A stretch of DNA of 42,462 nucleotides. Source: a virus. Positions 1 to 40,612 of the stretch are shown here, piece after piece. Position 1 is the stretch's first letter. Each line of letters opens with the position of its first letter. The DNA lies in IMG/VR virus record IMGVR_UViG_3300027852_000076; one strand, 5' to 3'. Position numbers and translations under genes: made by a program. Under the pieces are notes generated by a model. It worked only from the letters and a program-made list of their open reading frames with translations. It ran no database searches and was not told where the DNA came from.

Positions 1-24
1 TACTTCACTTTTGATGGCTGCGGA
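1..24. repeat. Terminal direct repeat (tacttcacttttgatggctgcgga), identical to 42439-42462. It is the overlap of a circular or circularly permuted assembly.
   Basis: The same 24-mer was read at both window ends. A minus-strand ORF continues in frame across the junction. Confidence 0.9.
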
Positions 25-966: not shown

Positions 967-1731
967 TCAAACCTTGATTACCACTTGTGCCACACATCGA
1001 CATTGAATATCAGTACCAGGGTGTCCAGTTTTTGGCGGAGGATCGTCCCACCTGAAAGTTTTCCCGTTATTCTTTATATGACTATCACGAACGCGCCCAT
1101 CACCTGCCGTTCGCCAAATGTATTCTTCGGAACCCACATTCTGAGCTCGCTGCTTAGTCAGCGCTGAATTAAGCTTACTTGTTTGATCCCTAGCAATAAG
1201 CTTAGCTCGCTTGTATTCCACCTTACCGATAGCCATCACCTGTTCCGTTAATGAGGTAGCACTTTGCCCCTCGATCATCCCACGGTAAACAACACCTTCT
1301 AGCTTTTTAAAATATTGTTCAGGTATTGAGGTAATTAAATCAACATTAGCTGTGACGCTCAATCGCAAGGTATCCTCTAGGTTTTCCGACCGAGCAATCA
1401 CGCCAAGGTCTACACCTGCAGTATTTTTAACAGCAGAATAAAATCTATCTTTATTCATGCGATTAGTTTCTGAAACAAAAGGTATAGCCATCAGCTTTGC
1501 CGTACTATTGGCAAGTGCTAATTGTGCTCGTAATTGTCGAAATCTTTCCTCTAAAAAATCCACATAGGTATCGGTAGTAATAACATGCTCATCCTGAACA
1601 TATTCTGTTTCGAGCGAATGAATCAAAGGTATAATTTGTTCCTGGGTAACCTTAATGAAGCCCTTGGTGTACGCCTCCAATTGCCTACGATATTTTACCT
1701 CAGGTGTCCTCGGCGCTTTCATCGGATTCAT
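967..1731 (-). CDS. Head morphogenesis / minor head protein (Mu F / SPP1 gp7-like)
   Basis: C-terminal motif DSHIKNNGKTFRWDDPPPKTGHPGTDIQCRCVA. It lies directly downstream of the portal gene. The track ORF starts at 1806, inside the portal gene. The internal ATG at 1731 (MNPMKAPRT) is more plausible. Confidence 0.8.
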   Translation of the reverse strand: MNPMKAPRTPEVKYRRQLEAYTKGFIKVTQEQIIPLIHSLETEYVQDEHVITTDTYVDFLEERFRQLRAQLALANSTAKLMAIPFVSETNRMNKDRFYSAVKNTAGVDLGVIARSENLEDTLRLSVTANVDLITSIPEQYFKKLEGVVYRGMIEGQSATSLTEQVMAIGKVEYKRAKLIARDQTSKLNSALTKQRAQNVGSEEYIWRTAGDGRVRDSHIKNNGKTFRWDDPPPKTGHPGTDIQCRCVAQVVIKV

Positions 1732-3136
1732 CTTCTTCTTCTTCGCCTTCCTGTGCTCCCGATTCGTTTCCAATAATCGTTTCTTCTCTATTCTCAAAAA
1801 GGCCATTTAATTTTTCCTCGGAAACATATTCTTCTAAATCATCAATGTAATCATCAGTGATATTTGTATAGGTGGAATTTTGCTTCAATTCCTTGGCTAC
1901 AATATCCTCGGTAACAACACCTTTTTCCAGGTAGATTGCGTCCCGTTGAGCATTGTTTAAATCAATAGTTGCCTGTTCCCCTGGCGTTACTTGGAAAAGA
2001 GAATTGAATTTATATTGCAGGTCGGAATGATCCAAGCCTAAACTTTTCGCCATAATCTTGTCGAAGTAATCAAGCTTTGGCTTATAGATACTATATTGAT
2101 CCGACCGAACCGAGTCATAATAATTTCTTAAATCACCCTCACCCGTTGCGCTCAAACCCTCGGCTGATTTTCCAAGTAAACGTGTAGCGGGTATATCGCT
2201 TGCCGCTGACATAAATATGGCATATTTTTCCAGTAAATCAGGCAAGCCTGAAAAAGTATTTGTTTTCGTATTAAATGTTTCATCGCTATCTAATAAAAGC
2301 ATATTGTTGAAACTTTTCATGCTAGTGGCCAGGGCGAAACGCTTGCGCAACATTGCTTCACCTTCCGGTGTTTGTAGGTAATTCATTAAACCCTTTACCT
2401 GAACAATATCCACATTTGTTTCATAGATCATGCTAGCGGCACTATCAGCAGCAGTGTTTAAATTCAACAATGCTTCATAAAGCCTATCCAGAACAGAATC
2501 AGAATTGTAATTATTTCTACGGAATTCGTCATAGGGTAGTTGCACACCGTCGAAACGTAACACCCTACTATGGTGAATTCTCACTGATGTTTCATTGAAC
2601 CGATAAAATTCCGGCATTCCAAAATTAACATCCATTGGATCACTGATTGGCTGAACATCGGCTGTGCTAATCCTATGCCGATCAATTGCCTTAATATGGC
2701 GCAACCCACCTTCTTTAATATTTTCCACTATTAATGGCTGATCTGGCTCCAGGCCATCATCAACTGACAATATTATAAAAGACGTACCATAAAGCCGCGC
2801 CCATTTATGCGCAGTGTTAAAATTAGCCACCAACTTTATGCGCCGTTCTTCTTCTTCCAAAACCTTAACTGTTTCAGGGGTAATATCAGAAATAAATGAA
2901 CGCCATTCTCGCGTCATGTCATCGGGAATAATATCCACTACCTTTCCCGCTAACCAATCAGCGCGATACATTGCCGACAGCTCATCCTGATTACCTTCCG
3001 CTGATAACTGCCTATTGTTTACGAATTTTGCATTATGACGTTTATCAGCCTCTGTGCCTAATTGAGCGATAAGGTTTTCCAAGCCATCTTGAAAAGTTTT
3101 TGCATCAGTGTCTGTTATTTTAGCTTTGTCGCTCAT
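1700..3136 (-). CDS. Portal protein
   Basis: 478 aa, located between large terminase and the Mu-F-like gene, with an acidic C-terminal tail (EGEEEEDESDESAEDT). The sequence feels DUF1073-like, from memory only. Confidence 0.75.
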   Translation of the reverse strand: MSDKAKITDTDAKTFQDGLENLIAQLGTEADKRHNAKFVNNRQLSAEGNQDELSAMYRADWLAGKVVDIIPDDMTREWRSFISDITPETVKVLEEEERRIKLVANFNTAHKWARLYGTSFIILSVDDGLEPDQPLIVENIKEGGLRHIKAIDRHRISTADVQPISDPMDVNFGMPEFYRFNETSVRIHHSRVLRFDGVQLPYDEFRRNNYNSDSVLDRLYEALLNLNTAADSAASMIYETNVDIVQVKGLMNYLQTPEGEAMLRKRFALATSMKSFNNMLLLDSDETFNTKTNTFSGLPDLLEKYAIFMSAASDIPATRLLGKSAEGLSATGEGDLRNYYDSVRSDQYSIYKPKLDYFDKIMAKSLGLDHSDLQYKFNSLFQVTPGEQATIDLNNAQRDAIYLEKGVVTEDIVAKELKQNSTYTNITDDYIDDLEEYVSEEKLNGLFENREETIIGNESGAQEGEEEEDESDESAEDT

Positions 3137-3154: not shown

Positions 3155-3901
3155 TTACATTGAATGTTTGCTATATAATTGGTCGCCAAATACTAATAAA
3201 TCTTCCACTGCATCCATGGTTGGATCAATTTGGTCATCAAATTTATGCGTCATTAAGGGACTGAATTTCATAAATTCATCTTTGTAATCTGATACCCACG
3301 GGACATTTTTAGGTAAATGGATATAGCCAGCATCAAAATATTTAACAACACCCATGGCCCTAAAAACTTTATCTTTGTTCCGTGGTATACCTTCGATTGG
3401 AATTAAATAATTTTGCTTAATGGATTGTATTAACGAACTACCCGAGCTTTTATCTTCCACTTTTACCAGTTGGGCACCAAAGGGTTTGTACTGGTTTGGT
3501 TTGTGTTTGTTCCAAAACTCTACAAGCATACTTTCCAATTGCGGCGCTTCCCACTTACCGCGAATTTGATCTACTAAATAAATTCCACTCGACGGACTAC
3601 GTGCCCAAAACTGGAAAACACTATAATCATTTTGTTCCTGTACCTTTTGCGCAGTGTCCCCGTATATGCGCCACACATCAATATCACTAGGAAGAAGATC
3701 GTAGTGTTTCCAGTACTTATCTTTAAACATTAGACCGCCATACGGGCGCGGGTTTTGCTGTGACTGACTAGCAAACGTGTATTTATCCCCTTCTTGCAAT
3801 ACTTGTAATTCTTTCAGGCTATGTTTTCTTGCCCAAAGGGGTTGATCAAGTGGGATACTATCGGGGCAAATATTATCAATTTCAGCATTACTAAAAAGCA
3901 T
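3155..3901 (-). CDS. terL: Terminase large subunit, C-terminal RNaseH-like nuclease half (separate ORF)
   Basis: Motifs LWARKHSLKELQ...FASQSQQNP, YGDTAQKVQEQNDYSVFQFWAR and DDQIDPTMDAVEDL are typical of TerL nuclease domains. It overlaps the ATPase ORF by 11 nt in another frame. Confidence 0.8.
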   Translation of the reverse strand: MLFSNAEIDNICPDSIPLDQPLWARKHSLKELQVLQEGDKYTFASQSQQNPRPYGGLMFKDKYWKHYDLLPSDIDVWRIYGDTAQKVQEQNDYSVFQFWARSPSSGIYLVDQIRGKWEAPQLESMLVEFWNKHKPNQYKPFGAQLVKVEDKSSGSSLIQSIKQNYLIPIEGIPRNKDKVFRAMGVVKYFDAGYIHLPKNVPWVSDYKDEFMKFSPLMTHKFDDQIDPTMDAVEDLLVFGDQLYSKHSM

Positions 3902-4781
3902 ATTCGTAGTCTTCCCCCGTTCTTAGTGTGTGCAGTATTCCATTAATGTCCAGGGGAATGCCGTGAGTATAGTCTTCCGGATAAGGCGCATTTACTTCAC
4001 CATCGGCTAGTAATGTCGGAATTGATAAGTGATACCACACATCACCGGAACCACCTCGCAGCAAATAACCACTCATATCGTCATCATGGATTCTTTGCAT
4101 AATAACGACTATTGGAACGGTTTCCACGGCAAGGCGGGAACGCATGGTATTATTGAATCTATTATTTATTCCGTTTCGTTTCGGTACTGAAAACGCATCA
4201 TCTGGCTTAACGGGATCATCAATTACAAGGGCACCCGTAAAACCTTCCTCCATGCGTCCAGCACGAAAGCCGGTAATTTGCCCACCCGCTGCAGCAGCCA
4301 TCATGCCGCCACCCTGTTCAGTAAACCAGCGTTTTTTACCCTTTGAATCTACACGAATTTGCATGGGCCACAATTCTTGAAATTCATCAGTTACGATTGT
4401 TTCCTTTATTTTCGATGAATTCTCATGCGCGAGGTCGGCTGAATAGCTTGCATGGATAAACTTCGCCCTGTGATTAATGGCTAAACCACGGGAAATAAAA
4501 TTAAGTACTACCTGTTCGGTTTTGGAATAACCAGGGGCCATGTTTACAATCAACCTAGGTATTTTCCCATCGTAAACAAGCTGTAGTGCGTATTCGATAA
4601 CGTAATGGTGCCAATTGCGTAAAAGCTTCACACCTTCTCGGTGCTTGAAAAAATAGCGCATAAACTGCATACCGTCATTTTCAAGCATGTAGCGCAGCAT
4701 TCTTTTTTCATTAGGTGACCAGGGATTAATAGCTGAATCGAATGTTCCAGGGAGGATAATTTTATTGTTAGAATTCATCAT
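3891..4781 (-). CDS. terL: Terminase large subunit, N-terminal ATPase half (separate ORF)
   Basis: Walker A-like NMAPGYSKTE, Walker B-like GALVIDDPVKPDD and coupling-like VVIMQRIHDDD. It lies downstream of the putative small terminase. Confidence 0.8.
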   Translation of the reverse strand: MMNSNNKIILPGTFDSAINPWSPNEKRMLRYMLENDGMQFMRYFFKHREGVKLLRNWHHYVIEYALQLVYDGKIPRLIVNMAPGYSKTEQVVLNFISRGLAINHRAKFIHASYSADLAHENSSKIKETIVTDEFQELWPMQIRVDSKGKKRWFTEQGGGMMAAAAGGQITGFRAGRMEEGFTGALVIDDPVKPDDAFSVPKRNGINNRFNNTMRSRLAVETVPIVVIMQRIHDDDMSGYLLRGGSGDVWYHLSIPTLLADGEVNAPYPEDYTHGIPLDINGILHTLRTGEDYEYAF

Positions 4782-5166
4782 TAAACTTTTCCTTGAATAA
4801 CAATATTTCTAACTCTGTTAGTGGTTCATTATCCGCTGCCCCCGCCGCCCCAATATCACCCAGCTCAATTTGTTTACGTTTAGGATGAAGATATTCCGCC
4901 AAGGTTTTACCCGCTAACAATGACGCTGATAATTCAACATTACCGTAATTAGAACCGAAAGTGGCTTCATCAATAATATCTTCCCAGTCATCTTTCGAGA
5001 TATATCCATCAGTCGCAGCATCTATTTTTAAAATTAATTTTTGCAATGATGATGCACGGCGAACGTCTTGCCCTTGCATAATTGATTCGAGGAAAACAAG
5101 CGGATCAACTATTTCACCTGAATGTATAAGCTCCCGTATCTGTTCAACAGTAAAAGGCGTTGGCAT
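4768..5166 (-). CDS. Putative terminase small subunit
   Basis: 132 aa, directly upstream of and overlapping TerL. The LAEYLHPKRK motif resembles small-terminase families. The call rests on position plus weak motif evidence. Confidence 0.5.
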   Translation of the reverse strand: MPTPFTVEQIRELIHSGEIVDPLVFLESIMQGQDVRRASSLQKLILKIDAATDGYISKDDWEDIIDEATFGSNYGNVELSASLLAGKTLAEYLHPKRKQIELGDIGAAGAADNEPLTELEILLFKEKFNDEF

Positions 5167-5238: not shown

Positions 5239-5523
5239 TTAAACTTTAACCACTAATTTTGCCTTACTCTTTTGGCCATCACTATAGGTTGCTAAACAGG
5301 TTAATATTGATCTCCCTGGTGCAATTGCCGAAAGTGTAACGACCGCTAAATTCCCATCAACGCCTTGACCATCTACCCTAACGCTTTCGCCGCTAACAAG
5401 CACCCACTCCCCGCTAACCAATGCTGCACCAAGGGCATCAATGTTATCACTAACATCGTATGCAAAAGCAAACACTTCACCGGAACACATTGAAAATTGT
5501 CCAAAATCACAACCCATTAGCAT
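5239..5523 (-). CDS. Small Ig-like (Big_2-like) protein of the accessory fibre locus
   Basis: 94 aa with a beta-rich C-terminus (AVVTLSAIAPGRSILTCLATYSDGQKSKAKLVVKV). It overlaps the upstream gene by 7 nt, suggesting coupled translation. Confidence 0.45.
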   Translation of the reverse strand: MLMGCDFGQFSMCSGEVFAFAYDVSDNIDALGAALVSGEWVLVSGESVRVDGQGVDGNLAVVTLSAIAPGRSILTCLATYSDGQKSKAKLVVKV

Positions 5524-5711
5524 GTACCTTTTGTTGTTCGCGTATGGTGATCCGCGTAAATTGTTCTATCTATTGGTTCAGCCCTAATTGTGAAAAACAC
5601 GGAAGGGACAATGTAGTCCGGTCGCAAGTACCCTGCGGTAACCACCCCAGGTACCGATCCCTGAAATACACCGTTCCCATAGCCACTTGTTACTATAGCC
5701 GCAATGCTCAT
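5517..5711 (-). CDS. Small conserved-looking protein with a Gly/Tyr-rich N-terminus (SGYGNGVFQGSVPGVVTAGY)
   Basis: 64 aa. Its start overlaps the stop of the repeat-fibre gene (ATGA-type junction at 5711). Confidence 0.45.
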   Translation of the reverse strand: MSIAAIVTSGYGNGVFQGSVPGVVTAGYLRPDYIVPSVFFTIRAEPIDRTIYADHHTRTTKGTC

Positions 5712-7165
5712 TAAGTCGCCCTTACGCTAGATGTTGGTGATTGTTCATCATCGAGGGTATACGTTGCGGCAGGGGTGCTACCGTCCAACTGGCTAACCGT
5801 TATGGTGCTACCCACTATCGCAAAATCACCTAATTTTTGTTGCATTAACAGTAATGCTTGTTCCAGGGTCGGGGCATCACCTTTAGCGGCATAGTTTTCG
5901 TTCAATTGGGTTGTAAATATATCCGCTAATGTTGGTAACGCAGCAATTTCAACACTTGTCGCTAACGTAGCAATTTCCACGCTTGTCGCCATACCAGCCT
6001 GATTTTCCAATGCTGTTGGTAACGCAGCAATTTCAACACTTGTCGCTAATGGAGAAAGTTCAGCGCTTGTCGCTAATGGAGAAAGTTCAGCACTTGTCGC
6101 TAATGGAGAAAGTTCAGCACTTGTCGCCATACCTGCCTGATTCTCTAGCGCCGTTGGTAACGCTGCAATTTCAGCACTTGTCGCTAATGGAGAAAGTTCA
6201 GCACTTGTCGCTAACGTAGAAAGTTCAGCACTTGTCGCTAATGGAGAAAGTTCAGCACTTGTCGCTAATGCGGAAAGTTCAGCACTTGTCGCTAATGGGG
6301 AAAGTTCAGCACTTGTCGCCATACCAGCCTGATTCTCTATCGCCGTTGGTAACGCTGCAATTTCAACACTTGTTGCCATACCCGCCTGATTTTCCAATGC
6401 TGTTGGTAACGCTGCAATTTCAGCACTTGTCGCTAATGGGGAAAGTTCAGCACTTGTCGCTAATGGAGAAAGTTCAGCGCTTGTCGCCATACCGGCCTGA
6501 TTTTCCAATGCCGTTGGTAACGCAGCAATTTCAGCGCTTGTCGCCATACCCGCCTGATTCTCTAGCGCCGTTGGTAACGCTGCAATTTCAACACTTGTTG
6601 CTAATGGAGAAAGTTCAGCACTTGTTGCTAATGGAGAAAGTTCAGCACTTGTCGCTAATGGAGAAAGTTCAGCGCTTGTCGCTAATGGAGAAAGTTCAGC
6701 ACTTGTCGCTAATGGAGAAAGTTCAGCACTTGTCGCTAATGGAGAAAGTTCAGCACTCGTCGCTAATGGAGAAAGTTCAGCACTTGTCGCCATACCCGCC
6801 TGATTTTCCAATGCTGTTGGTAACGCAGCAATTTCAGCACTTGTCGCCATGCCCGCCTGATTTTCAAATGCTGTTGGTACTTCAGAAACAAGCCGCGTAT
6901 CCGTCTTAATTGTAAAATGTTGCGTTATCCCATCAACATGGGTAAATGTTAATCCAACAATATCACCGTTCATTTCTGATGCTAATAAGTTAAACGACCA
7001 TTGCCCATTCCCCTTATGTACAGGGGTAACATCATCAATTGCAGCTTGTGCTCCCCCATCTAACGTGAAGTGTCCGAGAGGTGTCCCAGTTGTAACGTCA
7101 TTACCATTAGCTCGACTAACAAAACCAACCGTGAAACCTGTAACACTTGTATTTTTTTTAAACAT
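5711..7165 (-). CDS. Fibre-like structural protein with a huge internal tandem-repeat stalk
   Basis: 484 aa: a unique 106-aa N-terminal domain, 306 aa of ATSAELSPL / ATS[AV]EIAALPTA[LI]ENQAGM repeats, and a unique 72-aa C-terminal domain (…STITVSQLDGSTPAATYTLDDEQSPTS). It is start/stop coupled to both neighbours. Confidence 0.75.
   Translation of the reverse strand: MFKKNTSVTGFTVGFVSRANGNDVTTGTPLGHFTLDGGAQAAIDDVTPVHKGNGQWSFNLLASEMNGDIVGLTFTHVDGITQHFTIKTDTRLVSEVPTAFENQAGMATSAEIAALPTALENQAGMATSAELSPLATSAELSPLATSAELSPLATSAELSPLATSAELSPLATSAELSPLATSAELSPLATSVEIAALPTALENQAGMATSAEIAALPTALENQAGMATSAELSPLATSAELSPLATSAEIAALPTALENQAGMATSVEIAALPTAIENQAGMATSAELSPLATSAELSALATSAELSPLATSAELSTLATSAELSPLATSAEIAALPTALENQAGMATSAELSPLATSAELSPLATSAELSPLATSVEIAALPTALENQAGMATSVEIATLATSVEIAALPTLADIFTTQLNENYAAKGDAPTLEQALLLMQQKLGDFAIVGSTITVSQLDGSTPAATYTLDDEQSPTSSVRAT
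5930..6877 (-). repeat. Coding tandem-repeat array: 18 copies of a 27-bp unit and 7 copies of a 57-bp unit, plus partial end units
   Basis: Unit gctaatggagaaagttcagcacttgtc (plus strand) was read repeatedly. Block order is L,S7,L2,S2,L2,S5,L,S3,L,S,partial L. Units are nearly identical at the nucleotide level. Confidence 0.95.
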
Positions 7166-8439
7166 TACATTCCACCTATTAAAGTATTATTCCCTGATAC
7201 CCAAGCTGGGTTAAAAGATTCAGCTTCAAACGCAACTACCATCCATTTTCGTGCCGTGCTAGCAACAGCATTTATTTCTGATGCGGGTACCGTCCAACCA
7301 TCAGCGTTAAACATTGGTTGGCCAACGTTATAAACAACCGCATCGCTATCATTAACCATATGCATTAATTTAAGGGCTGAAATAGAACTAGTTGCGCTGG
7401 TGTCAGCGCCATCTTTTACGTTTGTTGAAACCGAAACTGCCCTAACATCATCCGCTGAACCAAAGCCAACAAAACCGGCCCTGCTTCCATAGTTGGGGCC
7501 AAGTGCATCGGTAGCATCCAGTACTGTACCCCCGATATTTACGAACTGAGGTTTAAAACCAATACCTTCCACATCCCAATCAGTAGCCACTGAGTCTGGA
7601 GAATCTACAATCTGCACCGCAACTTTAGTTTCACCAGTGTGCATTGCTAAATAATAAACTACATCGCCGCCGGTTGCTCCAGTGCCATCTGATTCCCAAC
7701 CATCCGCGATAAAGCTACTTATGTGCCTTTTCCACGTTGTGTTATTCCAAAGTTGTTGGCCGATTATAGATGTACTTGAAAGAAGTAGGCCGGTTTCATC
7801 TAAGTTGACACCATATCTACCTGGGCACATTATGAGAGAAGCTTGTTCTATACTTATCCCATTGTCATAGGCAGCACCATTTGAAATTATGCCCTGGTTA
7901 AATACGCCAGTGGAACTTGAGTAACCGATACTTGAAACATCTAAGTAATTCGGTTGGAATCCTATCCCTACTTTTGTACTTGGGCCTGCTGCTGAAGCGG
8001 GGGCCCATGAACCAACCGCAACTTGCAAATCATCCCCGCCGTAAAACTCAATTTTGCATTTCATCACCCGCGTTGATATGTCGGGGGCGTTTAGTCTCCA
8101 TCCATCAGCGATAGGTAATACAGATAATAGTCTCTTTTGACCTAGGGTAGTGTTAACCGCGTTCTCATAATACCTAGCCACGTGGGTTGTAGTTTGCGTC
8201 CTCCAGGTAGACGTATTACCTACCACCCCATCTAGCGCTATTGTTGAGCACGAACGTTGATCAGTTGCCGTTGCATAACCGAAACCCAAGGTTGCATCGT
8301 CCTCGGGTGTTTCATTTCCCTCACTTCCCAAGATGGTTAGCTTAATCGCTTTAGGTGTCCACCCGAGACCAGGGATTGTTATATCAAAATCCCCCTGGGC
8401 CAAGGGCCAGTCAAATTGTGTAGTTGCTACTTTCATCAA
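7165..8439 (-). CDS. Fibre/receptor-binding-like structural protein with three internal domain repeats
   Basis: 424 aa. Three units each open with G[LI]G[WF]xP (GLGWTPKAI, GIGFQPNYL, GIGFKPQFV) and each contain xADGW (IADGWRL, IADGWES, NADGWTV). Its stop is coupled to the repeat-fibre gene start at 7165. Confidence 0.6.
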   Translation of the reverse strand: MMKVATTQFDWPLAQGDFDITIPGLGWTPKAIKLTILGSEGNETPEDDATLGFGYATATDQRSCSTIALDGVVGNTSTWRTQTTTHVARYYENAVNTTLGQKRLLSVLPIADGWRLNAPDISTRVMKCKIEFYGGDDLQVAVGSWAPASAAGPSTKVGIGFQPNYLDVSSIGYSSSTGVFNQGIISNGAAYDNGISIEQASLIMCPGRYGVNLDETGLLLSSTSIIGQQLWNNTTWKRHISSFIADGWESDGTGATGGDVVYYLAMHTGETKVAVQIVDSPDSVATDWDVEGIGFKPQFVNIGGTVLDATDALGPNYGSRAGFVGFGSADDVRAVSVSTNVKDGADTSATSSISALKLMHMVNDSDAVVYNVGQPMFNADGWTVPASEINAVASTARKWMVVAFEAESFNPAWVSGNNTLIGGM

Positions 8440-8453
8440 GGCACCAAAGGTAA

Positions 8454-8870
8454 TTAGTCGATCGGGGTTAATACAACCGTTGCACTAATTTCAAGTTTAA
8501 ATGTTTTAGGCTTAGCTTTAGGGTTTTCCAAGGAATGTTTTACTACTGTGTTTGAATAGACTGAAATTAATCCGTTAGTATCTTCTGTTGTACCCTTAAA
8601 AGAATATTCCCCTGCCACCGGCGGTTTAAATATAACGGAATACTTTGGGACAGTTTGGTTTTTCTGTAAAACTTTCAACTTTGGTAAAAATAACTTATCC
8701 CCTGGACCTTTTACGAAAATATCAAATTGTTTAATTTCATTTATTTTCATTTTCGTACCATCTTCGCGTTCAAGTTGGTGTTCCCATTTCAGGGAAATAT
8801 CACTTGGTTCAGCAAACACACTGGTAGAAAGTATTAGGGGTAAAAATTTAATCACATTCATATTATTCAT
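8454..8870 (-). CDS. Secreted protein with a cleavable-type signal peptide and an FN3/Ig-like body
   Basis: N-terminus MNNMNVIKFLPLILSTSVFAEP, with no lipobox Cys. The body is beta-rich (…YSVIFKPPVAGEYSFKGTTEDTNGLISVYSNTV). Confidence 0.6.
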   Translation of the reverse strand: MNNMNVIKFLPLILSTSVFAEPSDISLKWEHQLEREDGTKMKINEIKQFDIFVKGPGDKLFLPKLKVLQKNQTVPKYSVIFKPPVAGEYSFKGTTEDTNGLISVYSNTVVKHSLENPKAKPKTFKLEISATVVLTPID

Positions 8871-10819: not shown

Positions 10820-13800
10820 TCACGCTAAAATACCGTCAACCCACTTTACCCCGTAAACTTTCATTGTTCGTGAACCGCCTTCCTTAACCACTAATTCATT
10901 ATCACGCAACGCACTATAGAAGTTATTCCGTCCCACTGGCTTAGTGAAATTATCATCACACCAAAAGCAATATTCCCCGTAAACCTTTCGCGCTTTTAAG
11001 CAATCAGCACTGTTTGTAATTTCTAAACATTCTTCGATAAATAGTTCCACATCTTCATCTTGCGCCATGTTGTTTCCCTCCTCATCCACAACACCATCAA
11101 AATCATAAATTTCTTCCCCTAACCACTTCCCACCATAAATGTATTTTAGGTTATTGGCCCCCGTCCTCACTGTTAAGTGGCCTTGCTCAATGTTCTGGTA
11201 GAAGGTATTCCGGCCCAAGGGTTTGGCACCGTTATCATCACACCATGCACAATAATCACCGTAGATGCTTTGGGCCACTCCAGCCCTGGTGTACCCGCTA
11301 TAGTTGACCCGATCCCTATCCAGTATAAATTTCTCAGAAATGTATCGAGCCAATGGATTGGAGCGCATAAATAGATCGTCCGTAGCGGCCTGAACGCTTT
11401 CCGGAACAAGAAACTTACTACCGCGCTCTTTGAAACGGCATAGACCTTGGGCCACCCTATTCAGCACCCCGCTTATTTCCTCCGGATCACTAAGGATTGT
11501 TTTCACCCGATCAGGGTCTTCCTTTCCAGCTTGCCTAAATTGTTGGTTGAATGGGATAACCTGAATCCGTTCTCGCAATGCGTCACCTGTTTCAGCAAGG
11601 CGCACATTACTGTTAGTGGAAACAACAACAGTACCTCTGTATTGAAAATCGAATTCATCCACGCCTTTGGGGTTGGCGCTCATAATAGTATTCTCAGATA
11701 GCTTTTTAATCAGTGCGTCATTAAGCCGAACATTATTACTCAGCTCTTGAATACCGATAACCTTTTTCCCAACTAAGTCAGCCGTTGCGTGGTTATTACT
11801 TATCCCGTTGGTTTTCACCACTAGGTTTTCATCAGCCGCTTTATATTCCGCGCCCACCAATGCCTGGATAATTTTCATCAATGTGGTTTTACCATCGCCC
11901 CCTGGCCCTTTGAATATGCAAAAGAGCCGCCCGTTTTTCTCGTTCTGAATCATATAGCCGAACAATTCCCAGAAGTGCCGGATAATTTCCAGCTTGTCTT
12001 CATACTTGGAAAATATTTCATCCACAGTTTTATCCACAAGCTGGCATGTCGAATCGGGGGCATAGTTCGCCTGTAAACATTCCGTCAAATAACTATTAGG
12101 CTGGTGCCGCTTTAATCGCATGTCGCCGGTATCATCCTTAGACCACAATTCCCCATTTAGACAATTAAACACGGGTTTTTTAATATTTGAATAGTTGAAA
12201 ATTTTAGTAGCACTCAAGGCGCGTGAACTAATCACCAGGGATGAGCTACTTTCTATGGCTTTGGCTTCATCTATTTCTACGCCGAAACTATCTTTTAAAG
12301 TATCAACCGCCAAACTTAGTGTTCGTTTTAATCTATCGCGGCTGATCGGTACCCAGTGTGTTTTTTTGAAAATCCAAATCTGACCGTTTGGTTCCACTAA
12401 TAAATGCTTCCCCTTGCTATATGTCCATTCCAGGGTCCGAGTAGCAACAACCTTTGGGAAAGAATCTCTACAGCCGATAACCAACTCAGCGTTAATGCGT
12501 TTTAATGATCTGCGGGTAACTACCTTTGCTTGAATGAGGGTTTCTTCTGCCCGCTCCTTTTCAATAATTCCGGCACGGTTGATTGTTCGCAAACAGTTCA
12601 ACAATTCGCTTTCCGGAATTAAATCCTTATCGGGGTAATCGCCTATAAGTGTTCGAGTAAGTGCTAATGCATAACCTTCGGCAAAATGTTCTTCACCCAT
12701 CGCGCCGATTGTTTCACCTTCCCCTGCTTCGATCGTTTTTTGCATACCTTCGGATATGCTGGTTTTATCATCCTGCAAACCGTCATCATCTTCACTATCA
12801 TGGTTATCACCGAGGCCATCATCGCCGAGGCCATCGTCACCCAAGTCATCGTCACCCAGGGCATCATCGCTGAAGCTATCGTCACCGAGGGCATCGTCAC
12901 CTAGGCCATCAAAATCAAGTACAGCACGTACATCAGAAGAAACGACACCTTTCCTATCTAGCTCATAAACAAGACTACCGGCTGTTCGGCTTATTGTTTT
13001 TTCATCACCTAATGATTCCCAGCGATTGCGAATAATATTTTCATCATCCTGGAAACTTTCGTCACTAATGGACCACTGTATAAATTCCTCCAAGCCCTCA
13101 CCCCCCGTTGCATGGTGGCAAGACATTAAGAATGGTTCCCAGGTATCGTTTGTGTTATATTCGGTCGGGTCGAGCTTGCTTAAAACAAGTTCCTCTAATT
13201 GCATTCCGGAAAAGGAACCGTATCCGTGACCGCTTATTTGGGTTGGCACAACATCGCGGCTTATCGATTCCATAAATTTGACGGAAAGAGTTTGAGGTGT
13301 AGTTGGGTTATCCCATGTGTAATATCCCCCATTGGGATGCCTGCTACCGACACCAATTACGTACCCGCCTTTTTTCTTGAAATCTATTCCAGGTAACTCC
13401 GGCACTGCTTTTCGTATTCGATGGAAATCATACAATTCATCGAAATCATCCAGGGGCAATTTACAATAAATGTGATACCCGCCGCCGCCAGTCTTAGCCA
13501 CCATGTTTTCCCACAACATTGCATCAAACGATTCATAACCCAACATAGTTGCTAGTCGTTGTTCTGAATCAATTCCGTCTTCGTAATTCCGAGGATCACA
13601 ATCAATAACTAAATCATTTTCACCTAAACGAACTCCAAGGTTTAATCCGCCTTCGGCGTACTTTTTATATTCACTAGCTGTTTGTTTATAGTTGCGAATA
13701 TCCCATTGAGCATGAAATGGTGTTTTACCTTTTGGGACCACCCGTGGTTCACCGGATTTTGTTTTGACTATCGTTTGACTATTCCAAGGACGAATGGGGA

Positions 13801-13891
13801 AAATGTAATAGGGCTCATTATCACCAATCCTGTTAGAATTATCGTTAGAATACGGGCGTAATGTTTTCGTGGTTATATTGGATTTTGTCAT
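10820..13891 (-). CDS. Primase-helicase: Prim-Pol (AEP) + PriCT-2 + acidic LGDD repeat linker + D5/P4-type SF3 helicase + duplicated C-terminal winged-helix-like domain
   Basis: AEP-like VIDCDPRN...GGGGYHIYCKLP, PriCT-2-like WEPFLMSCHHATGGEGLEEFIQWS and Walker A GPGGDGKTT. Two C-terminal copies of YG[DE]YC[AF]WCDDN..KP[LV]GRN.FY. Confidence 0.85.
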   Translation of the reverse strand: MTKSNITTKTLRPYSNDNSNRIGDNEPYYIFPIRPWNSQTIVKTKSGEPRVVPKGKTPFHAQWDIRNYKQTASEYKKYAEGGLNLGVRLGENDLVIDCDPRNYEDGIDSEQRLATMLGYESFDAMLWENMVAKTGGGGYHIYCKLPLDDFDELYDFHRIRKAVPELPGIDFKKKGGYVIGVGSRHPNGGYYTWDNPTTPQTLSVKFMESISRDVVPTQISGHGYGSFSGMQLEELVLSKLDPTEYNTNDTWEPFLMSCHHATGGEGLEEFIQWSISDESFQDDENIIRNRWESLGDEKTISRTAGSLVYELDRKGVVSSDVRAVLDFDGLGDDALGDDSFSDDALGDDDLGDDGLGDDGLGDNHDSEDDDGLQDDKTSISEGMQKTIEAGEGETIGAMGEEHFAEGYALALTRTLIGDYPDKDLIPESELLNCLRTINRAGIIEKERAEETLIQAKVVTRRSLKRINAELVIGCRDSFPKVVATRTLEWTYSKGKHLLVEPNGQIWIFKKTHWVPISRDRLKRTLSLAVDTLKDSFGVEIDEAKAIESSSSLVISSRALSATKIFNYSNIKKPVFNCLNGELWSKDDTGDMRLKRHQPNSYLTECLQANYAPDSTCQLVDKTVDEIFSKYEDKLEIIRHFWELFGYMIQNEKNGRLFCIFKGPGGDGKTTLMKIIQALVGAEYKAADENLVVKTNGISNNHATADLVGKKVIGIQELSNNVRLNDALIKKLSENTIMSANPKGVDEFDFQYRGTVVVSTNSNVRLAETGDALRERIQVIPFNQQFRQAGKEDPDRVKTILSDPEEISGVLNRVAQGLCRFKERGSKFLVPESVQAATDDLFMRSNPLARYISEKFILDRDRVNYSGYTRAGVAQSIYGDYCAWCDDNGAKPLGRNTFYQNIEQGHLTVRTGANNLKYIYGGKWLGEEIYDFDGVVDEEGNNMAQDEDVELFIEECLEITNSADCLKARKVYGEYCFWCDDNFTKPVGRNNFYSALRDNELVVKEGGSRTMKVYGVKWVDGILA
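12800..12915 (-). repeat. Imperfect 15-bp coding repeats giving about 8 copies of (L/F)(G/S)DDx
   Basis: Protein segment DGLGDDALGDDSFSDDALGDDDLGDDGLGDDGLGDN. DNA units of the gccatcgtcaccsag type were read directly. Confidence 0.85.
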
Positions 13892-15204: not shown

Positions 15205-15215
15205 GACATAATATG
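15205..15215. promoter_or_regulatory. Operator-like motif GACATAATATG, copy 3. It overlaps the ATG start of the DUF2800 nuclease gene.
   Basis: Exact 11-mer repeat in the 15151-15212 intergenic spacer. Confidence 0.5.
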
Positions 15216-16583
15216 CCACATTTTGAAAATGTAATTGAAGATAAAAAGCACAGCAAGCTTTCCTGTTCGGGCTCAAAATCCTGGTTTACTTGTTCTGGCA
15301 AGATGGCCTTCATTGACCGACTAAAATCCGCCAATCTACTGCAGGGCGATGATACAACCATTCATAGCGCTACCGGCACCGTCGCGCACGAAATCCACGA
15401 AAAATGTTTACTGGAAAAGCGCAAAGCTAAGCACTACGTGGGTGAAAAGTTTACAGTTAGAGATTTTGAAATTACTGTCACTGATGAAATGGCAGGTGCA
15501 GTACAGCAAAGCGTGGATTATGTTAATGCTAGAATAAAAGCCGCTAAAATAAAAGGCTATGCCGTTGAATTGCGGATAGAACAATGGTGTTCCCTTGAAT
15601 CGCTAAAAATACCAGGGCTGGATGGCGGAACTGCAGATGTAATAATAATTTGCTGGGAAAATGGGCCCAACAATAAACGCCAGTTGGCCAGTGTAGAAAT
15701 TATTGATTATAAGCACGGCAAAGGTGTAGCCGTAGATGTGGAAAATAATTCGCAAGCGCTTTGTTACTCCCTCGCTGTTTTACTATTACCTGAACTATTT
15801 CATGCTAGGGAAATAAAACGCGACCTTGTAAGAATCACCATCGCCCAGCCGCGAGCGTTCCACGTTGACGGTCCTTTCCGCACCTGGGATATTAGTCCGG
15901 CAGAAATAATGGATTGGTGCGAACTGGAATTAATTCCGAGCGCTAAGGCCACTAGGGATGATGACGCTAAACTGACCGCAAGCGATGAGGGTTGTTTATT
16001 TTGTCCAGCTAAAGGTCAATGTTCCGCATGGTTTAAGCACGCTGAAAAAATGCTTGAACAGGAATTTGCAGAATTTGCAGATGATGAGGAAATCGAACCG
16101 CCTGATAATGCGATGACAACAAAGCAGAAAACTTTCATAGTTAAACATGCTAAAGGTTTGCGTGGTTTTTTGGACGCCGTAGAGTCGCAAGTTTATGATG
16201 AGCTAATCGATGGTAGCACTGAATACAAGAATGATTTTAAATTAGTTAGAAAACAATCACACCGTAAATTTTTAGAAGATGCATTTGATGAGGATTTTAG
16301 TCCCTTATTTTCTGCGTTAGAATTTGATGATCTTTATGAACAGCGCACACGCACACTCGGTGATATTGAAAGAAGTTTAAACAAGGCACTTGGAAAAGAA
16401 TCAGCTAGTATTACAATGGAAAGCGTTACTATAAAACCAAAAGGTGCGCCAACCATTGCGTTAGTAGGTGATAAACGGGCGGCTGTATTATGTTCTGCAG
16501 AAGATGAATTTGCTGAATTCGCTGAAGATGAATTTGATGAATTTGATGAATTTGATGAATTTGATGAATTTGGTGAATTATAA
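15213..16583 (+). CDS. Cas4-like PD-(D/E)XK exonuclease (DUF2800 family)
   Basis: N-terminal Cys region HSKLSCSGSKSWFTCSG, nuclease core GGTADVIII...VEIIDYKHGKG and C-terminal Cys cluster CLFCPAKGQCSAW. No SD before the ATG. The C-terminus is five copies of DEF followed by GEL. Confidence 0.8.
   Translation: MPHFENVIEDKKHSKLSCSGSKSWFTCSGKMAFIDRLKSANLLQGDDTTIHSATGTVAHEIHEKCLLEKRKAKHYVGEKFTVRDFEITVTDEMAGAVQQSVDYVNARIKAAKIKGYAVELRIEQWCSLESLKIPGLDGGTADVIIICWENGPNNKRQLASVEIIDYKHGKGVAVDVENNSQALCYSLAVLLLPELFHAREIKRDLVRITIAQPRAFHVDGPFRTWDISPAEIMDWCELELIPSAKATRDDDAKLTASDEGCLFCPAKGQCSAWFKHAEKMLEQEFAEFADDEEIEPPDNAMTTKQKTFIVKHAKGLRGFLDAVESQVYDELIDGSTEYKNDFKLVRKQSHRKFLEDAFDEDFSPLFSALEFDDLYEQRTRTLGDIERSLNKALGKESASITMESVTIKPKGAPTIALVGDKRAAVLCSAEDEFAEFAEDEFDEFDEFDEFDEFGEL
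16527..16580 (+). repeat. 9-bp coding tandem repeat (5 copies of gatgaattt plus ggtgaatta) encoding DEFDEFDEFDEFDEFGEL
   Basis: Read directly at the 3' end of the nuclease gene. Confidence 0.95.
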
Positions 16584-16595
16584 AGAAGGAGGTTT

Positions 16596-16650
16596 ACACG
16601 AAACAGAAAAACACGAAACAGAAAAACACGAAACAGAAAAACACGAAACA
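16596..16650. repeat. Non-coding 15-bp tandem array (acacgaaacagaaaa, 3.7 copies). Iteron-like.
   Basis: Three perfect units (16596-16640) plus a 10-bp partial. It lies between the nuclease and SSB genes. It is preceded by AAGGAGG (16586-16592), which has no start codon behind it. Confidence 0.9.
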
Positions 16651-40294: not shown

Positions 40295-40612
40295 TTACGC
40301 TTTGGCTTTAGGTGGTGTTGGTACGGCAGTAGAACTGGATTTAGCCTTGGTATCAGGGTCTTTTTCCAGCTCAAGATCATTCTCACTATTGCCAAAACTT
40401 ACAAGATTTTGTTCCTGTAAGTTTTTAAGGTAGGGGCATAAAACTTTCCCAGCCTTAGAAACAAATGCTAACCAATGATCATCGTCCACCACGTTAAACC
40501 CTGGCGCAATGCGAACACTTACAATGCGCCCTGTTTTGGTTGCGGTTTTTAAATTGTACTGCCTTGCTGTTTTGTTAATTACACCGGCCATGATTTTATA
40601 TTCCTTCGCCAA
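40295..40612 (-). CDS. Hypothetical structural-module protein with a Pro/Lys/Ala-rich C-terminal tail
   Basis: 105-aa ORF directly after the capsid gene. The start may be the internal ATG at 40591. Confidence 0.45.
   Translation of the reverse strand: MAKEYKIMAGVINKTARQYNLKTATKTGRIVSVRIAPGFNVVDDDHWLAFVSKAGKVLCPYLKNLQEQNLVSFGNSENDLELEKDPDTKAKSSSTAVPTPPKAKA

What the first reader, a model, noticed from the sequence alone, without database searches (positions are those of the whole stretch)
5930..6877. Fibre-like gene built mostly from a mosaic of near-identical 27-bp and 57-bp tandem units
Residues 107-412 of the 484-aa protein form one uninterrupted array.

- **Units:** there are 18 short units (ATSAELSPL, 27 bp) and 7 long units (ATS[A/V]EIAALPTA[L/I]ENQAGM, 57 bp).
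- **Unit relationship:** the long unit is a variant of the short unit plus a 10-aa PTALENQAGM insert.
- **Block order:** L, S7, L2, S2, L2, S5, L, S3, L, S, then a partial L.
- **Conservation:** units are almost identical at the DNA level, with only a few point differences (SAL, STL, A to V). This implies recent expansion or ongoing gene conversion.
- **Consequence:** both unit lengths are multiples of three. Slippage or unequal recombination would therefore change stalk length without breaking the frame.

The unique N-terminal (106 aa) and C-terminal (72 aa) domains look like an attachment domain and a tip domain. The locus could be a length-variable fibre or whisker, in effect a contingency locus. 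I do not recognise this two-unit grammar from any described fibre family. The gene lies away from the baseplate fibre, in a second fibre locus next to the terminase genes.
Basis: partly seen in the sequence, partly recalled or inferred. Interest (0 to 1): 0.7.

Follow-up and report, generated by a model that had tools for sequence, protein, structure and literature searches.

The report
Phage fibre gene with repeat-built stalk
A small contractile-tailed phage carries an accessory fibre gene whose whole stalk is 26 near-identical 9-residue units and 8 linkers, a repeat that matches a known trimeric fibre motif and whose copy number differs between assemblies of the same phage.

Summary
The gene is on the minus strand at 5711-7165 (484 aa) and carries exactly the 18 short and 7 long units, in the order reported. 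They read more simply as 26 nonads ([L/M]ATS[A/V]E...) in runs of 1,8,1,3,1,6,4,2, separated by 8 decads (PTALENQAGM), spanning aa 97-410.

The protein belongs to a large, unannotated family of mosaic phage fibres:
- **N-terminal domain:** a 95-aa Ig-like domain found in about 7,400 protein clusters.
- **Likely position:** in other phages this domain is fused to, or encoded beside, head-tail adaptor genes, so I favour a neck (collar or whisker) fibre. That placement is inferred.
- **C-terminal domain:** a portable 74-aa domain shared with fibres that have different N-termini.
- **Stalk motif:** the nonad resembles the beta-layer motif of alpha/beta coiled coils (Tcar0761, MATKDDIAN). The grammar therefore has a described precedent.

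Copy number is unsettled. A second assembly of the same phage encodes a 217-aa version, and a third breaks at both edges of the array. The two full assemblies otherwise differ by one SNP and by one unit at each of two other short tandem repeats. Real length polymorphism is plausible, but it cannot be separated from assembly collapse here.

This is a new variant of a known kind, of moderate interest.

The parts
5711..7165 (-). Fibre gene, 484 aa including the stop codon. Its start overlaps the stop of the upstream gene by 1 nt, and its stop overlaps the start of the downstream gene by 1 nt.
6881..7165 (-). N-terminal Ig-like domain (aa 1-95), the putative virion-anchoring domain.
   Evidence: AlphaFold2 gives a beta-sandwich with pLDDT 87. 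It is 59-78% identical to the N-termini of otherwise unrelated fibres. A profile search finds 7,404 clusters. BFVD matches are to uncultured-phage, tail, minor-tail and BppU_N proteins. There is no Pfam or PHROG hit.
5936..6877 (-). Tandem array (aa 97-410): 26 nonads ([L/M]ATS[A/V]E...) in runs of 1,8,1,3,1,6,4,2, separated by 8 decads PTA[LFI]ENQAGM. It is the putative trimeric alpha/beta coiled-coil stalk.
5714..5935 (-). C-terminal 74-aa domain (predicted two helices plus three strands). It is a portable module at the distal end of the fibre.
   Evidence: It is present at 46-63% identity at the C-terminus of 14 of the 42 hits, most of which have other N-termini. The AlphaFold2 model has only moderate confidence and finds no fold match.
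7165..8439 (-). Upstream partner gene, 424 aa, with three internal repeats about 134 aa long (G[IL]G[FW]xP at residues 24, 158 and 292).
   Evidence: no Pfam, PHROG, PDB or GenBank-phage match
7168..7215 (-). C-terminal peptide FNPAWVSGNNTLIGGM of the upstream protein. This motif is co-conserved with the fibre N-domain in other phages.
5517..5711 (-). 64-aa ORF, translationally coupled to the fibre gene. Function unknown. A small ORF occupies the same position in L004 (60 aa), L005 (57 aa) and L019 (54 aa).
5239..5523 (-). 94-aa protein, a possible Ig-like collar or 'fiber-tail adaptor' of the GP4 gp77 type.
   Evidence: The Pfam PF23148 match has E=8.4e-5 and 23.5 bits, below the 27-bit cut-off, but it covers the whole profile. 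The protein at the same position in L005 scores 78 bits. There is no pairwise similarity to that protein and no homologues were found.

Best explanation
The gene encodes an accessory virion fibre of a roughly 42.4-kb contractile-tailed phage. It is probably trimeric and has three parts.

- **N-terminal domain (95 aa).** An Ig-like domain fixes the fibre to the particle. The most likely site is the head-tail junction, as a collar fibre or whisker like XM1 gp40. Two cassette partners may take part: the upstream 424-aa protein, whose conserved C-terminal peptide travels with this domain, and the downstream 94-aa gp77-like protein.
- **Stalk (314 aa).** It is made only of repeats: 26 nonads, each carrying a beta-layer-like motif ([L/M]-A-T-S-[A/V]-E), and 8 decads. 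I infer that it folds as a trimeric alpha/beta coiled coil, so each unit adds a fixed increment of length.
- **C-terminal domain (74 aa).** A conserved portable module caps the fibre, serving either as a folding or trimerisation nucleus or as a ligand-binding tip.

The array arose by in-frame tandem amplification of the single-copy segment (...ATSAEIAAL-P/N...) that precedes this C-domain in relatives. The decad-containing units are the older part, because they carry many synonymous differences. The nonad runs are the younger part.

Because all units are in frame and nearly identical, replication slippage or unequal recombination changes stalk length without destroying the protein. Two assemblies of the same phage differ in just this way (484 versus 217 aa).

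Shown: the anatomy, the family relationships, the origin of the units, and the difference between assemblies. Inferred: trimer formation, the alpha/beta coiled-coil fold, attachment at the neck, and that the length difference is biological.
For: **Anatomy**

**Fibre family**
- The N-domain is 59-78% identical in proteins of 168-895 aa with unrelated middle and C-terminal parts.
- A profile search finds 7,404 clusters at E<=1e-3.
- BFVD fold matches are to phage tail, minor-tail, BppU_N and neck-passage proteins.
- The C-domain occurs on 14 of the 42 hits.

**Neck position**
- The N-domain is fused to a head-tail adaptor in L012 (Pfam DnaT_2 5.9e-9; PHROG 477 'head-tail adaptor Ad1' 5.5e-15).
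- It is fused to a SU10 adaptor in L013 (PF24175, 5.7e-16, above cut-off) and is encoded next to the SU10 adaptor gene in L011.
- The cassette lies upstream of the tail terminator and tube genes in L006 and L019. In L019 it sits between the capsid gene and a DnaT_2 adaptor gene. In L006 an adaptor-like gene (weak similarity only) lies upstream.
- A gp77 'fiber-tail adaptor' follows the fibre in L005 at 78 bits, and weakly in the window.
- This phage's head and tail genes hit XM1, E217 and PhiTE Pfam families.
- XM1 has a collar spike with a 100-aa Ig-like N-terminal domain, then a trimeric coiled coil, then a C-terminal domain. It is encoded apart from the tail genes (PMC10457771).

**Stalk fold**
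- A 120-aa stretch of the array matches PDB 5APZ, the Tcar0761 MATKDDIAN nonads, as the best PDB hit (E=0.084).
- The published beta-layer consensus is [aliphatic]-A-T-K-[polar]-[DE], nonads form a trimeric alpha/beta coiled coil, and most known beta-layers are in phage fibres (PMC4786415).
- The window protein has 26 matches to [LIVM]AT[KS].[DE].

**Origin of the array**
- Single-copy ATSAEIAALNDIS and ALPTA[AL]EN motifs lie directly before the C-domain in P0024-26, P0029 and P0034.
- P0039 has a diverged run of about four nonads.
- L units differ mostly at synonymous sites.

**Variability**
- The ENA contig of the same phage encodes 217 aa, with a hybrid first/last L unit.
- The Logan contigs stop at both array edges.
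- Outside the array the ENA contig differs from the window by one SNP in 22.6 kb. It also lacks exactly one unit of a 15-bp repeat and one unit of a 9-bp repeat.
- In-frame tandem duplications in phage fibre genes have experimental precedent (PMC6365445).
Against: - No virion evidence exists for this protein or for any close relative.
- The N-domain has no specific match to a solved structure. All PDB Foldseek hits have E>=0.02 and are generic Ig domains. No XM1, GP4, Bas63 or Sf14 chain is in the top 50.
- The best phage PDB hits are baseplate entries (80alpha, NF5), and BppU_N is a baseplate domain. A baseplate position is therefore not excluded.
- The nonad motif has Ser where the consensus has Lys and Ala/Val where it has a polar residue. 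It also carries a Pro in each canonical unit, and no long heptad segments flank the array.
- The AlphaFold2 monomer model leaves the nonads as low-confidence coil (pLDDT about 50).
- The 5APZ match is weak and compositionally simple.
- The 217-aa allele could be a de Bruijn-graph collapse. Its hybrid junction is equally what an assembler path switch would give.
- No other contig with the array exists in IMG/VR, the JGI metagenome contigs or the GTDB genomes.
- The gp77 match in the window is below Pfam's cut-off.
Confidence: 0.55

Rival explanations
1. The array as written is largely an assembly product. Repeats are present in the reads, but the number and order of units in the window are not those of any real genome. 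On this view the difference between 484 and 217 aa reflects assembler behaviour, not biology.
For: - Three assemblies of the same phage give three outcomes: 484 aa in the window, 217 aa in the ENA MEGAHIT contig, and contig breaks at both array edges in Logan.
- 355 of 971 31-mers in the array are repeated.
- No independent contig carries the array.
- The 484-aa protein is not in the 15-billion-protein collection, although its neighbours are.
Against: - In the window version the longest exact internal repeat is 91 bp and every 99-mer is unique. A large-k assembly of 150-nt reads would therefore be unambiguous.
- The scattered synonymous differences between units are what real, somewhat aged repeats look like.
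- The Logan breaks show that the reads really branch here. That would not happen if only the short allele existed.
- The ENA contig also differs by one unit at two arrays of 55 and 77 bp. These are far too short for collapse, which points to real repeat-number polymorphism.
Confidence: 0.2
2. The protein is a real fibre, but it attaches to the baseplate or tail tip as a side fibre, or to the capsid as a head fibre, rather than to the neck.
For: - The best phage hits for the N-domain in the PDB are baseplate entries (80alpha 6v8i_AM, NF5 9m8o_P). BFVD hits include BppU_N, a siphovirus baseplate domain, and 'minor tail protein'.
- In L019 the cassette follows the capsid gene.
- Some family members carry long central regions, as receptor-binding proteins do.
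Against: - All of those fold hits are weak (E 0.02-0.1 in the PDB).
- The N-domain is covalently fused to head-tail adaptors in two phages and is encoded next to one in a third.
- The gene lies outside the baseplate and tail-fibre module, which has its own fibre at 27625-29091.
- The same N-domain occurs in P22-like, SU10-like, siphovirus-like and contractile-tailed genomes. These share a connector architecture but not a baseplate architecture.
Confidence: 0.25
3. The repeat region is a flexible, largely disordered spacer, an Ala/Thr/Ser/Pro-rich tether, and not an ordered alpha/beta coiled coil. On this view the unit sequence matters little.
For: - The AlphaFold2 monomer model gives coil with pLDDT about 50 for the nonads.
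- There is one Pro per canonical nonad, and the composition is rich in A, T, S, P, E and L.
- The match to 5APZ is weak.
Against: - Differences between units are mostly synonymous. Among the 17 canonical S units there are about 9 synonymous and 2 replacement differences. L units differ at up to 9 of 57 nt with only A/V and L/I changes. This indicates selection on the peptide.
- The motif at every unit boundary fits 4 of the 6 positions of the published beta-layer consensus, in register and with the exact nonad period.
- A monomer prediction cannot show a structure that exists only in a trimer.
Confidence: 0.3

Closest known systems
[quoted passage not shown] 2016, PMC4786415)
   Same: - Both have exact 9-residue tandem units.
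- Each unit starts with aliphatic-A-T-x-x-acidic.
- Both have runs of consecutive nonads (14 there; up to 8 here, 26 in all).
- Beta-layers are known mainly from trimeric phage fibres.
- Tcar0761 is the best PDB sequence hit of the array.
   Different: - The window motif has Ser for Lys and Ala/Val for the polar residue, plus one Pro per canonical nonad.
- The nonad runs are interrupted by decads, not flanked by long heptad coiled coils.
- The protein is from a phage, not a bacterium.
- The fold is not shown here.
Vibrio phage XM1 gp40 collar spike (PMC10457771)
   Same: - Both come from a small contractile-tailed phage with related head and tail gene families.
- Both have a roughly 100-aa Ig-like N-terminal domain, an elongated repeat or coiled-coil stalk, then a C-terminal domain.
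- Both genes lie apart from the tail module.
   Different: - No sequence or specific fold similarity to gp40 was found.
- XM1 has a 100-residue heptad coiled coil and a large tailspike domain. The window protein has a 314-aa nonad and decad array and a 74-aa tip.
GP4 gp77 fiber-tail adaptor with Fiber-1, and the Bas63 and Sf14 collar-whisker complexes (PMC12609058)
   Same: - A small Ig-like collar protein of the gp77 family is encoded two genes downstream of a fibre with the same N-domain in L005 (78 bits).
- The window has a weak gp77 match at the same position.
- Those systems are neck fibres found in both podoviruses and myoviruses.
   Different: - The window match is below Pfam's cut-off.
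- The fibre itself shows no similarity to Fiber-1 or to the whisker proteins, which are short dimers threaded on a 'rope'.
- No rope protein was identified.
T4 fibritin (wac)
   Same: The layout is the same: an N-terminal virion anchor, a long segmented trimeric stalk, and a small C-terminal domain that could nucleate folding. This comparison rests on established knowledge of fibritin, and on the summary.
   Different: - There is no sequence relation and no Pfam hit.
- Fibritin has diverged heptad segments, not a near-identical DNA minisatellite.
In-frame tandem duplications in phage fibre genes (EfV12-phi1, 1.8-kb units, PMC6365445; T4 gp37 His-box duplications, Tetart et al. 1996, as cited there)
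   Same: In both cases a variable number of in-frame tandem copies inside a fibre gene changes the fibre without breaking the frame.
   Different: - Those units are large (about 1.8 kb in EfV12-phi1) or are small domains in the adhesin (T4).
- Here the units are 27 and 57 bp and make up the entire stalk.
- No phenotype is known for this locus.

Membership tests
Alpha/beta coiled coil (beta-layer nonads, Hartmann et al. 2016) | Repeats with 9-residue (or 6-residue) spacing | tested here: met
   There are 26 nonads with exact 9-residue spacing, in runs of up to 8.
Alpha/beta coiled coil (beta-layer nonads, Hartmann et al. 2016) | Beta-layer consensus [aliphatic]-A-T-K-[polar]-[DE] | tested here: inconclusive
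   All 26 units read [L/M]-A-T-S-[A/V]-E, so 4 of 6 positions fit. Lys is replaced by Ser and the polar residue by Ala or Val. The phmmer match to 5APZ has E=0.084.
Alpha/beta coiled coil (beta-layer nonads, Hartmann et al. 2016) | Homotrimer with beta-strands crossing the axis between short helical segments | not testable with these tools
   Only monomer prediction was available. The nonads came out as coil with pLDDT about 50.
Alpha/beta coiled coil (beta-layer nonads, Hartmann et al. 2016) | Embedded in heptad coiled-coil segments | tested here: not met
   The flanks are an Ig-like domain and a small alpha+beta domain. The only intervening elements are Pro-containing decads.
XM1 gp40-type collar spike | N-terminal Ig-like domain of about 100 aa, followed by an elongated stalk | tested here: met
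   The AlphaFold2 model of aa 1-106 is a beta-sandwich with pLDDT 87, and the repeat stalk follows it.
XM1 gp40-type collar spike | Homology to gp40 in sequence or specific fold | tested here: not met
   No PDB sequence hit was found with the single sequence or the profile. No XM1 chain is among the top 50 Foldseek PDB hits, all of which have E>=0.02.
XM1 gp40-type collar spike | Binds the head-completion and tail-terminator rings | not testable with these tools
   The support is indirect. The N-domain is fused to, or encoded next to, head-tail adaptors in L011, L012 and L013.
GP4 gp77 collar with Fiber-1 system | A gp77-family (PF23148) collar protein encoded with the fibre | tested here: inconclusive
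   The window 94-aa protein scores 23.5 bits against a 27-bit cut-off (E=8.4e-5), with full profile coverage. The protein at the same position in L005 scores 78 bits. The two show no pairwise similarity.
GP4 gp77 collar with Fiber-1 system | Fibre subunit with the Fiber-1 or whisker fold, threaded on a rope protein | tested here: not met
   No GP4, Bas63 or Sf14 chain is among the Foldseek PDB hits for the N-domain. The architecture described in PMC12609058, short dimers on a rope, differs from this protein.
Contingency locus (simple-sequence phase variation) | A change in repeat number switches expression through a frameshift or promoter spacing | tested here: not met
   The units are 27 and 57 bp, all in frame, inside the coding region. 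Copy changes alter length only.
Variable-number tandem repeat within a phage population | Different copy numbers in otherwise identical genomes | tested here: inconclusive
   The alleles are 484 and 217 aa, and two other repeats differ by one unit each, against a single SNP in 22.6 kb. Assembly collapse of the long array is not excluded.

The most novel reading that the evidence does not exclude
The locus is a fast-mutating minisatellite that sets the length of a neck-attached alpha/beta coiled-coil whisker. A single phage population would then carry fibres from a few nanometres to roughly 45 nm (my estimate from about 1.4-1.5 angstrom per residue).

The fibre would also belong to a widespread 'plug and socket' system that has not been described. 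In it, a conserved C-terminal peptide (F-N/Q-P/A-A-W-x4-N-x-L-I-G-G) on a phage-specific upstream protein docks the portable Ig-like N-domain. That arrangement would let the same fibres move between myo-, sipho- and podoviruses.
Probability: 0.2. Interest if true: 0.7.

Novelty: new variant of a known kind. Interest (0 to 1): 0.5.

Why it matters
**If the copy-number differences are real.** This would be a natural case of a phage tuning the reach of an accessory fibre by slippage in a coding minisatellite. Repeat-number change would be outpacing point mutation: three repeat differences against one SNP in 22.6 kb. That is directly testable with long reads from the source sample.

**Annotation.**
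- The nonad array would be one of the longest natural candidates for the alpha/beta coiled-coil fibre type.
- The 95-aa N-domain heads a family of thousands of metagenomic phage proteins and has no Pfam or PHROG model.
- The co-conserved upstream peptide offers a concrete hypothesis for how such fibres are exchanged between unrelated virion types.

**Method.** The locus shows how short-read assemblers break, collapse or resolve the same coding repeat.

Tried and rejected
**Database searches that found nothing useful**
- Pfam found nothing for the fibre. PHROGs hit only the repeat region, in families of unknown function.
- GenBank phages have no near relative of the window. tblastn found only repeat-driven hits. 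The best, in Acinetobacter phage fLi-Aba02, lies antisense to an annotated gene and was discarded.
- PDB sequence searches with the N-domain, the N-domain profile, the C-domain, the 424-aa protein and the 94-aa protein gave nothing significant.

**Structure searches**
- Foldseek against the PDB gave only generic Ig hits for the N-domain.
- The C-terminal model has low confidence and gave only noise.

**Searches for other copies of the array**
- Exact-DNA and codon-degenerate patterns found none in IMG/VR, the JGI metagenome contigs or the GTDB genomes. The pattern itself is valid.

**Other dead ends**
- The GenBank record PP580404 (vB_VpaM_XM1) has no 839-aa gene, and its capsid genes are annotated differently from the XM1 of the cryo-EM paper. 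It may not be the same phage, so I did not use it for a gp40 comparison.
- The 94-aa protein has no homologues beyond itself.
- Promoter and terminator scans around the cassette were at or below the shuffled expectation.
- The context of P0039 was uninformative.
- The plus-strand ORFs inside the array (5983-6219 and 6232-6909) are antisense by-products of the repeat.
Full report
**1.

The ORF at 5711-7165 on the minus strand encodes 484 aa. Cutting the protein at each 'ATS' gives 18 units of 9 aa (27 bp) and 7 units of 19 aa (57 bp).

Tandem Repeats Finder reports periods of 27, 57 and 168 bp. The S-S junction occurs 13 times, against none in shuffled sequence.

Of the 17 canonical S units, nine are identical and the others differ by one or two bases. 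There are about nine synonymous differences and two replacements (P to A and P to T).

They fall into two DNA haplotypes that differ at up to 9 of 57 positions, yet the peptide changes only at A/V and L/I. The peptide is therefore under selection, and the L-type units are older than the S runs.

The 'extra' VPTAFENQAGM before the first unit shows that the register can be shifted. Read from PTA, the array is 8 decads PTA[LFI]ENQAGM alternating with runs of 1,8,1,3,1,6,4,2 nonads. That is 26 nonads covering aa 97-410, or window 5936-6877.

**2. How far the copy number can be trusted.**

The same phage is present in two other public assemblies.

- **ENA MEGAHIT contig** (41,754 bp). It carries the gene as 217 aa: one L unit that is a hybrid of the first and last L, then ATSVEIATL, then the terminal partial unit.
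- **Logan contigs of SRR5248754.** They are identical to the window but stop at window 6807 and 5959, the two edges of the array.

In the window version the longest exact internal repeat is 91 bp. All 99-mers are unique, while a third of the 31-mers are repeated. That explains the k=31 breaks. It also means a large-k assembly of 150-nt reads could be correct.

The 'mismatches' between the ENA contig and the window all lie inside the array. Outside it, 22.6 kb differ in only three ways:

- one SNP;
- the loss of exactly one 15-bp unit at 16596-16610;
- the loss of exactly one 9-bp unit at 16527-16535.

Arrays of 55 and 77 bp are too short to be collapsed by an assembler. Repeat-number polymorphism therefore seems real in this phage, and the 484 versus 217 aa difference is plausibly biological. 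The hybrid junction is nevertheless what either unequal recombination or a graph path switch would produce, so I cannot decide between them.

No other contig with the array exists in IMG/VR, the JGI metagenome contigs or the GTDB genomes.

**3. Genome context.**

The window has a 24-nt terminal overlap, so it is a complete circular 42,438-bp genome.

It is a contractile-tailed phage with these genes:

| Gene | Coordinates |
|---|---|
| Tail sheath | 36469-38364 |
| Major capsid protein | 40596-41636 |
| Portal | 1700-3136 |
| Large terminase (two ORFs) | 3155-4781 |
| Baseplate and tail fibre | 27.6-33.9 kb |

Pfam families precomputed on the Logan contig link the head and tail genes to XM1, E217, Pa193 and PhiTE types. 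The nearest GenBank phages share only about 37% sheath identity.

The fibre gene is the second of four translationally coupled genes on the minus strand. The order is the 424-aa gene, the fibre, a 64-aa ORF and the 94-aa gene. They lie just upstream of the putative small terminase gene (4768-5166, assigned by position).

**4. A mosaic fibre family.**

Among 5.8 billion proteins there are 42 hits.

- The first 95 residues are 59-78% identical in proteins of 168-895 aa whose remaining parts are unrelated to the window protein.
- The last 74 residues recur at 46-63% identity on 14 of the hits, most of which have different N-termini.
- A profile of the N-domain finds 7,404 clusters at E<=1e-3 among 1.84 billion representatives. 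The domain occurs at N-termini, at C-termini or in tandem.
- It has no Pfam or PHROG model.

AlphaFold2 predicts an Ig-like sandwich with pLDDT 87. PDB matches are generic (E>=0.02), and the best phage entries are the 80alpha and NF5 baseplates. BFVD matches are uncultured-phage proteins (down to 2e-5), followed by 'tail protein', 'minor tail protein', BppU_N and 'neck passage structure'.

**5. Where it sits on the virion (inferred).**

- In L012 the N-domain is fused to a head-tail adaptor (Pfam DnaT_2; PHROG 477 Ad1).
- In L013 it is fused to a SU10-type adaptor (PF24175, above cut-off).
- In L011 a 168-aa N-domain protein is encoded immediately before the SU10 adaptor gene.
- In L006 and L019 the cassette lies upstream of the tail terminator and tube genes. 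In L019 it sits between the capsid gene and a DnaT_2 adaptor gene. In L006 an adaptor-like gene, with only weak similarity, lies upstream.
- In L002, a P22-like podovirus, it lies just upstream of the small terminase gene, as in the window.
- In L005 the fibre is followed by a 57-aa ORF and a 92-aa protein that is a clear member of the GP4 gp77 'fiber-tail adaptor' family (78 bits). The window has the same order, 64 aa then 94 aa, but only a sub-threshold gp77 match (23.5 bits).

gp77 is the Ig-like collar that carries neck fibres in GP4. Related collar-whisker assemblies exist in the myoviruses Bas63 and Sf14 (PMC12609058).

XM1 has six trimers of a collar spike. Each has a 100-aa Ig-like N-terminal domain that binds the head-completion and terminator rings, followed by a trimeric coiled coil (PMC10457771).

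The window protein has that layout, but I found no homology to gp40. I therefore say it probably works like a collar fibre, and I do not file it as a member of that family. A baseplate position remains possible.

**6. A co-conserved partner peptide.**

In nine loci (the window, L001, L002, L004, L005, L006, L008, L013 and L019), the gene immediately upstream of the N-domain gene ends in F-[NQ]-[PA]-A-W-[AV]-x4-N-x-L-[IL]-G. The rest of each upstream protein ranges from 70 to 430 aa and is mostly unrelated between loci.

The DNA under the motif is full of synonymous differences, so the conservation is at the peptide level. The final LIGG codons may also serve as the ribosome-binding site.

- In at least five database proteins the motif is read in frame with the N-domain (P0002, P0007, P0086, P0090, P0108).
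- A 52%-identical homologue of the 424-aa protein (L020) lacks the motif and is not followed by a fibre. An 81%-identical homologue in a siphovirus-like contig (L019) has the motif and is followed by a different N-domain fibre.
- One fibre (L007) has no such upstream gene.

I infer a docking interaction. This is untested.

**7. What the repeats are likely to fold into.**

A 120-aa stretch of the array finds PDB 5APZ as its best hit (E=0.084). That entry holds the MATKDDIAN nonads of Thermosinus Tcar0761 fused to GCN4.

Hartmann et al. showed three relevant points (PMC4786415):

- such nonads form a trimeric fibre of alternating beta-layers and short helical segments;
- the consensus is [aliphatic]-A-T-K-[polar]-[DE];
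- most known beta-layers are in phage fibres and spikes.

Every unit here begins [L/M]-A-T-S-[A/V]-E, giving 26 matches to [LIVM]AT[KS].[DE].

The fit is partial. Ser replaces Lys, a Pro ends each canonical nonad, and there are no flanking heptad segments.

The AlphaFold2 monomer model leaves the nonads as low-confidence coil. It makes the Pro-free units helical.

If the fold is right, each nonad adds roughly 1.3 nm and the whole array about 45 nm, against about 5 nm in the 217-aa allele. These figures are my own estimate from about 1.4-1.5 angstrom per residue.

**8. Origin of the array.**

Relatives have a single ATSAEIAALNDIS, or ALPTA[AL]EN, directly before the C-domain (P0024-26, P0029, P0034). 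P0039 has about four diverged nonads, LATSAELAPLATSAELAGL.... Other members carry modest arrays of 7, 25, 34 or 37 residues.

The window array is therefore an extreme amplification of a native stalk motif, not a foreign insertion.

**9. Comparison with the known, and verdict.**

In-frame tandem duplications in fibre genes are documented: EfV12-phi1, and T4 gp37 as cited in that paper. Nonad coiled coils and neck fibres are also documented.

What is new here is the combination:

- a stalk made entirely of a two-unit coding minisatellite;
- membership of a very large unannotated fibre family;
- preliminary evidence that repeat number changes faster than point mutation.

I rate it a new variant of a known kind, with moderate interest.

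Noticed in passing
window 3155-3901 and 3891-4781 (minus strand): The large terminase is encoded as two overlapping ORFs: an ATPase part of 296 aa and a nuclease part of 248 aa. The junction reads ...GCT TTT TAG with the second ORF in the +1 frame. A tRNA-Phe could re-pair on the next TTT next to the stop codon, which is the classic setting for a programmed +1 frameshift. The split is present in all three assemblies.
   Followed up: partly
window 16596-16650 (intergenic) and 16503-16579 (3' end of the exonuclease gene 15213-16583): There is a perfect 15-bp tandem repeat (ACACGAAACAGAAAA, 3.7 copies) just upstream of the ssDNA-binding protein gene. There is also an in-frame 9-bp repeat (GATGAATTT, encoding DEF). 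The ENA assembly of the same phage lacks exactly one unit of each, and the rest of the 22.6 kb differs by one SNP.
   Followed up: partly
window 7168-7215 (minus strand); also L001, L002, L004, L005, L006, L008, L013, L019: The C-terminal peptide F-[NQ]-[PA]-A-W-[AV]-x4-N-x-L-[IL]-G ends otherwise unrelated proteins that lie immediately upstream of genes starting with the Ig-like N-domain. In several database proteins it is fused in frame to that domain. It may be a docking peptide.
   Followed up: partly
window 7165-8439 (minus strand): The 424-aa upstream protein has three internal repeats about 134 aa long (GLGWTP at 24, GIGFQP at 158, GIGFKP at 292). A single chain with pseudo-threefold repeats next to a presumably trimeric fibre is suggestive. 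An 81%-identical copy sits in an unrelated siphovirus-like contig (L019), so the pair moves as a cassette.
   Followed up: partly
window 1-24 and 42439-42462: A 24-nt direct terminal overlap is present, and a Logan contig (L015) runs across the joint. The window is therefore a complete, circularly closed genome of 42,438 bp.
   Followed up: yes
P0003, P0005, P0007, P0010, P0018 (C-termini); P0050, P0052, P0053, P0075, P0121 (tandem N-termini): The Ig-like domain also occurs at the C-terminus of fibres that already have it at the N-terminus (25-38% identity between the two ends). It also occurs as two tandem copies at the N-terminus.
   Followed up: no
window 5983-6219 and 6232-6909 (plus strand): Long antisense ORFs of 78 and 225 aa run through the array. 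They are by-products of the repeat and should not be annotated as genes.
   Followed up: yes
window 12806-12911 (inside the primase gene 10820-13891): Another in-frame coding tandem repeat is present, with periods of 15 and 45 bp and about 7 copies of the 15-bp unit. It did not differ between the window and the ENA contig.
   Followed up: partly
window 8454-8870 (minus strand): A 138-aa protein with an N-terminal signal-peptide-like segment (a hydrophobic stretch ending ...STSVFA|EP) lies directly upstream of the fibre cassette. It has no family match.
   Followed up: no
window 5711-7165: The exact 484-aa and 424-aa products are absent from the 15-billion-protein collection. Neighbouring proteins of the same 42,462-bp JGI contig are present. 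For the 424-aa gene the collection holds a 423-aa version (P0185), which suggests a different start call. The reason for the fibre gene is unknown, and the source pipeline may not have called a gene across the repeat.
   Followed up: no
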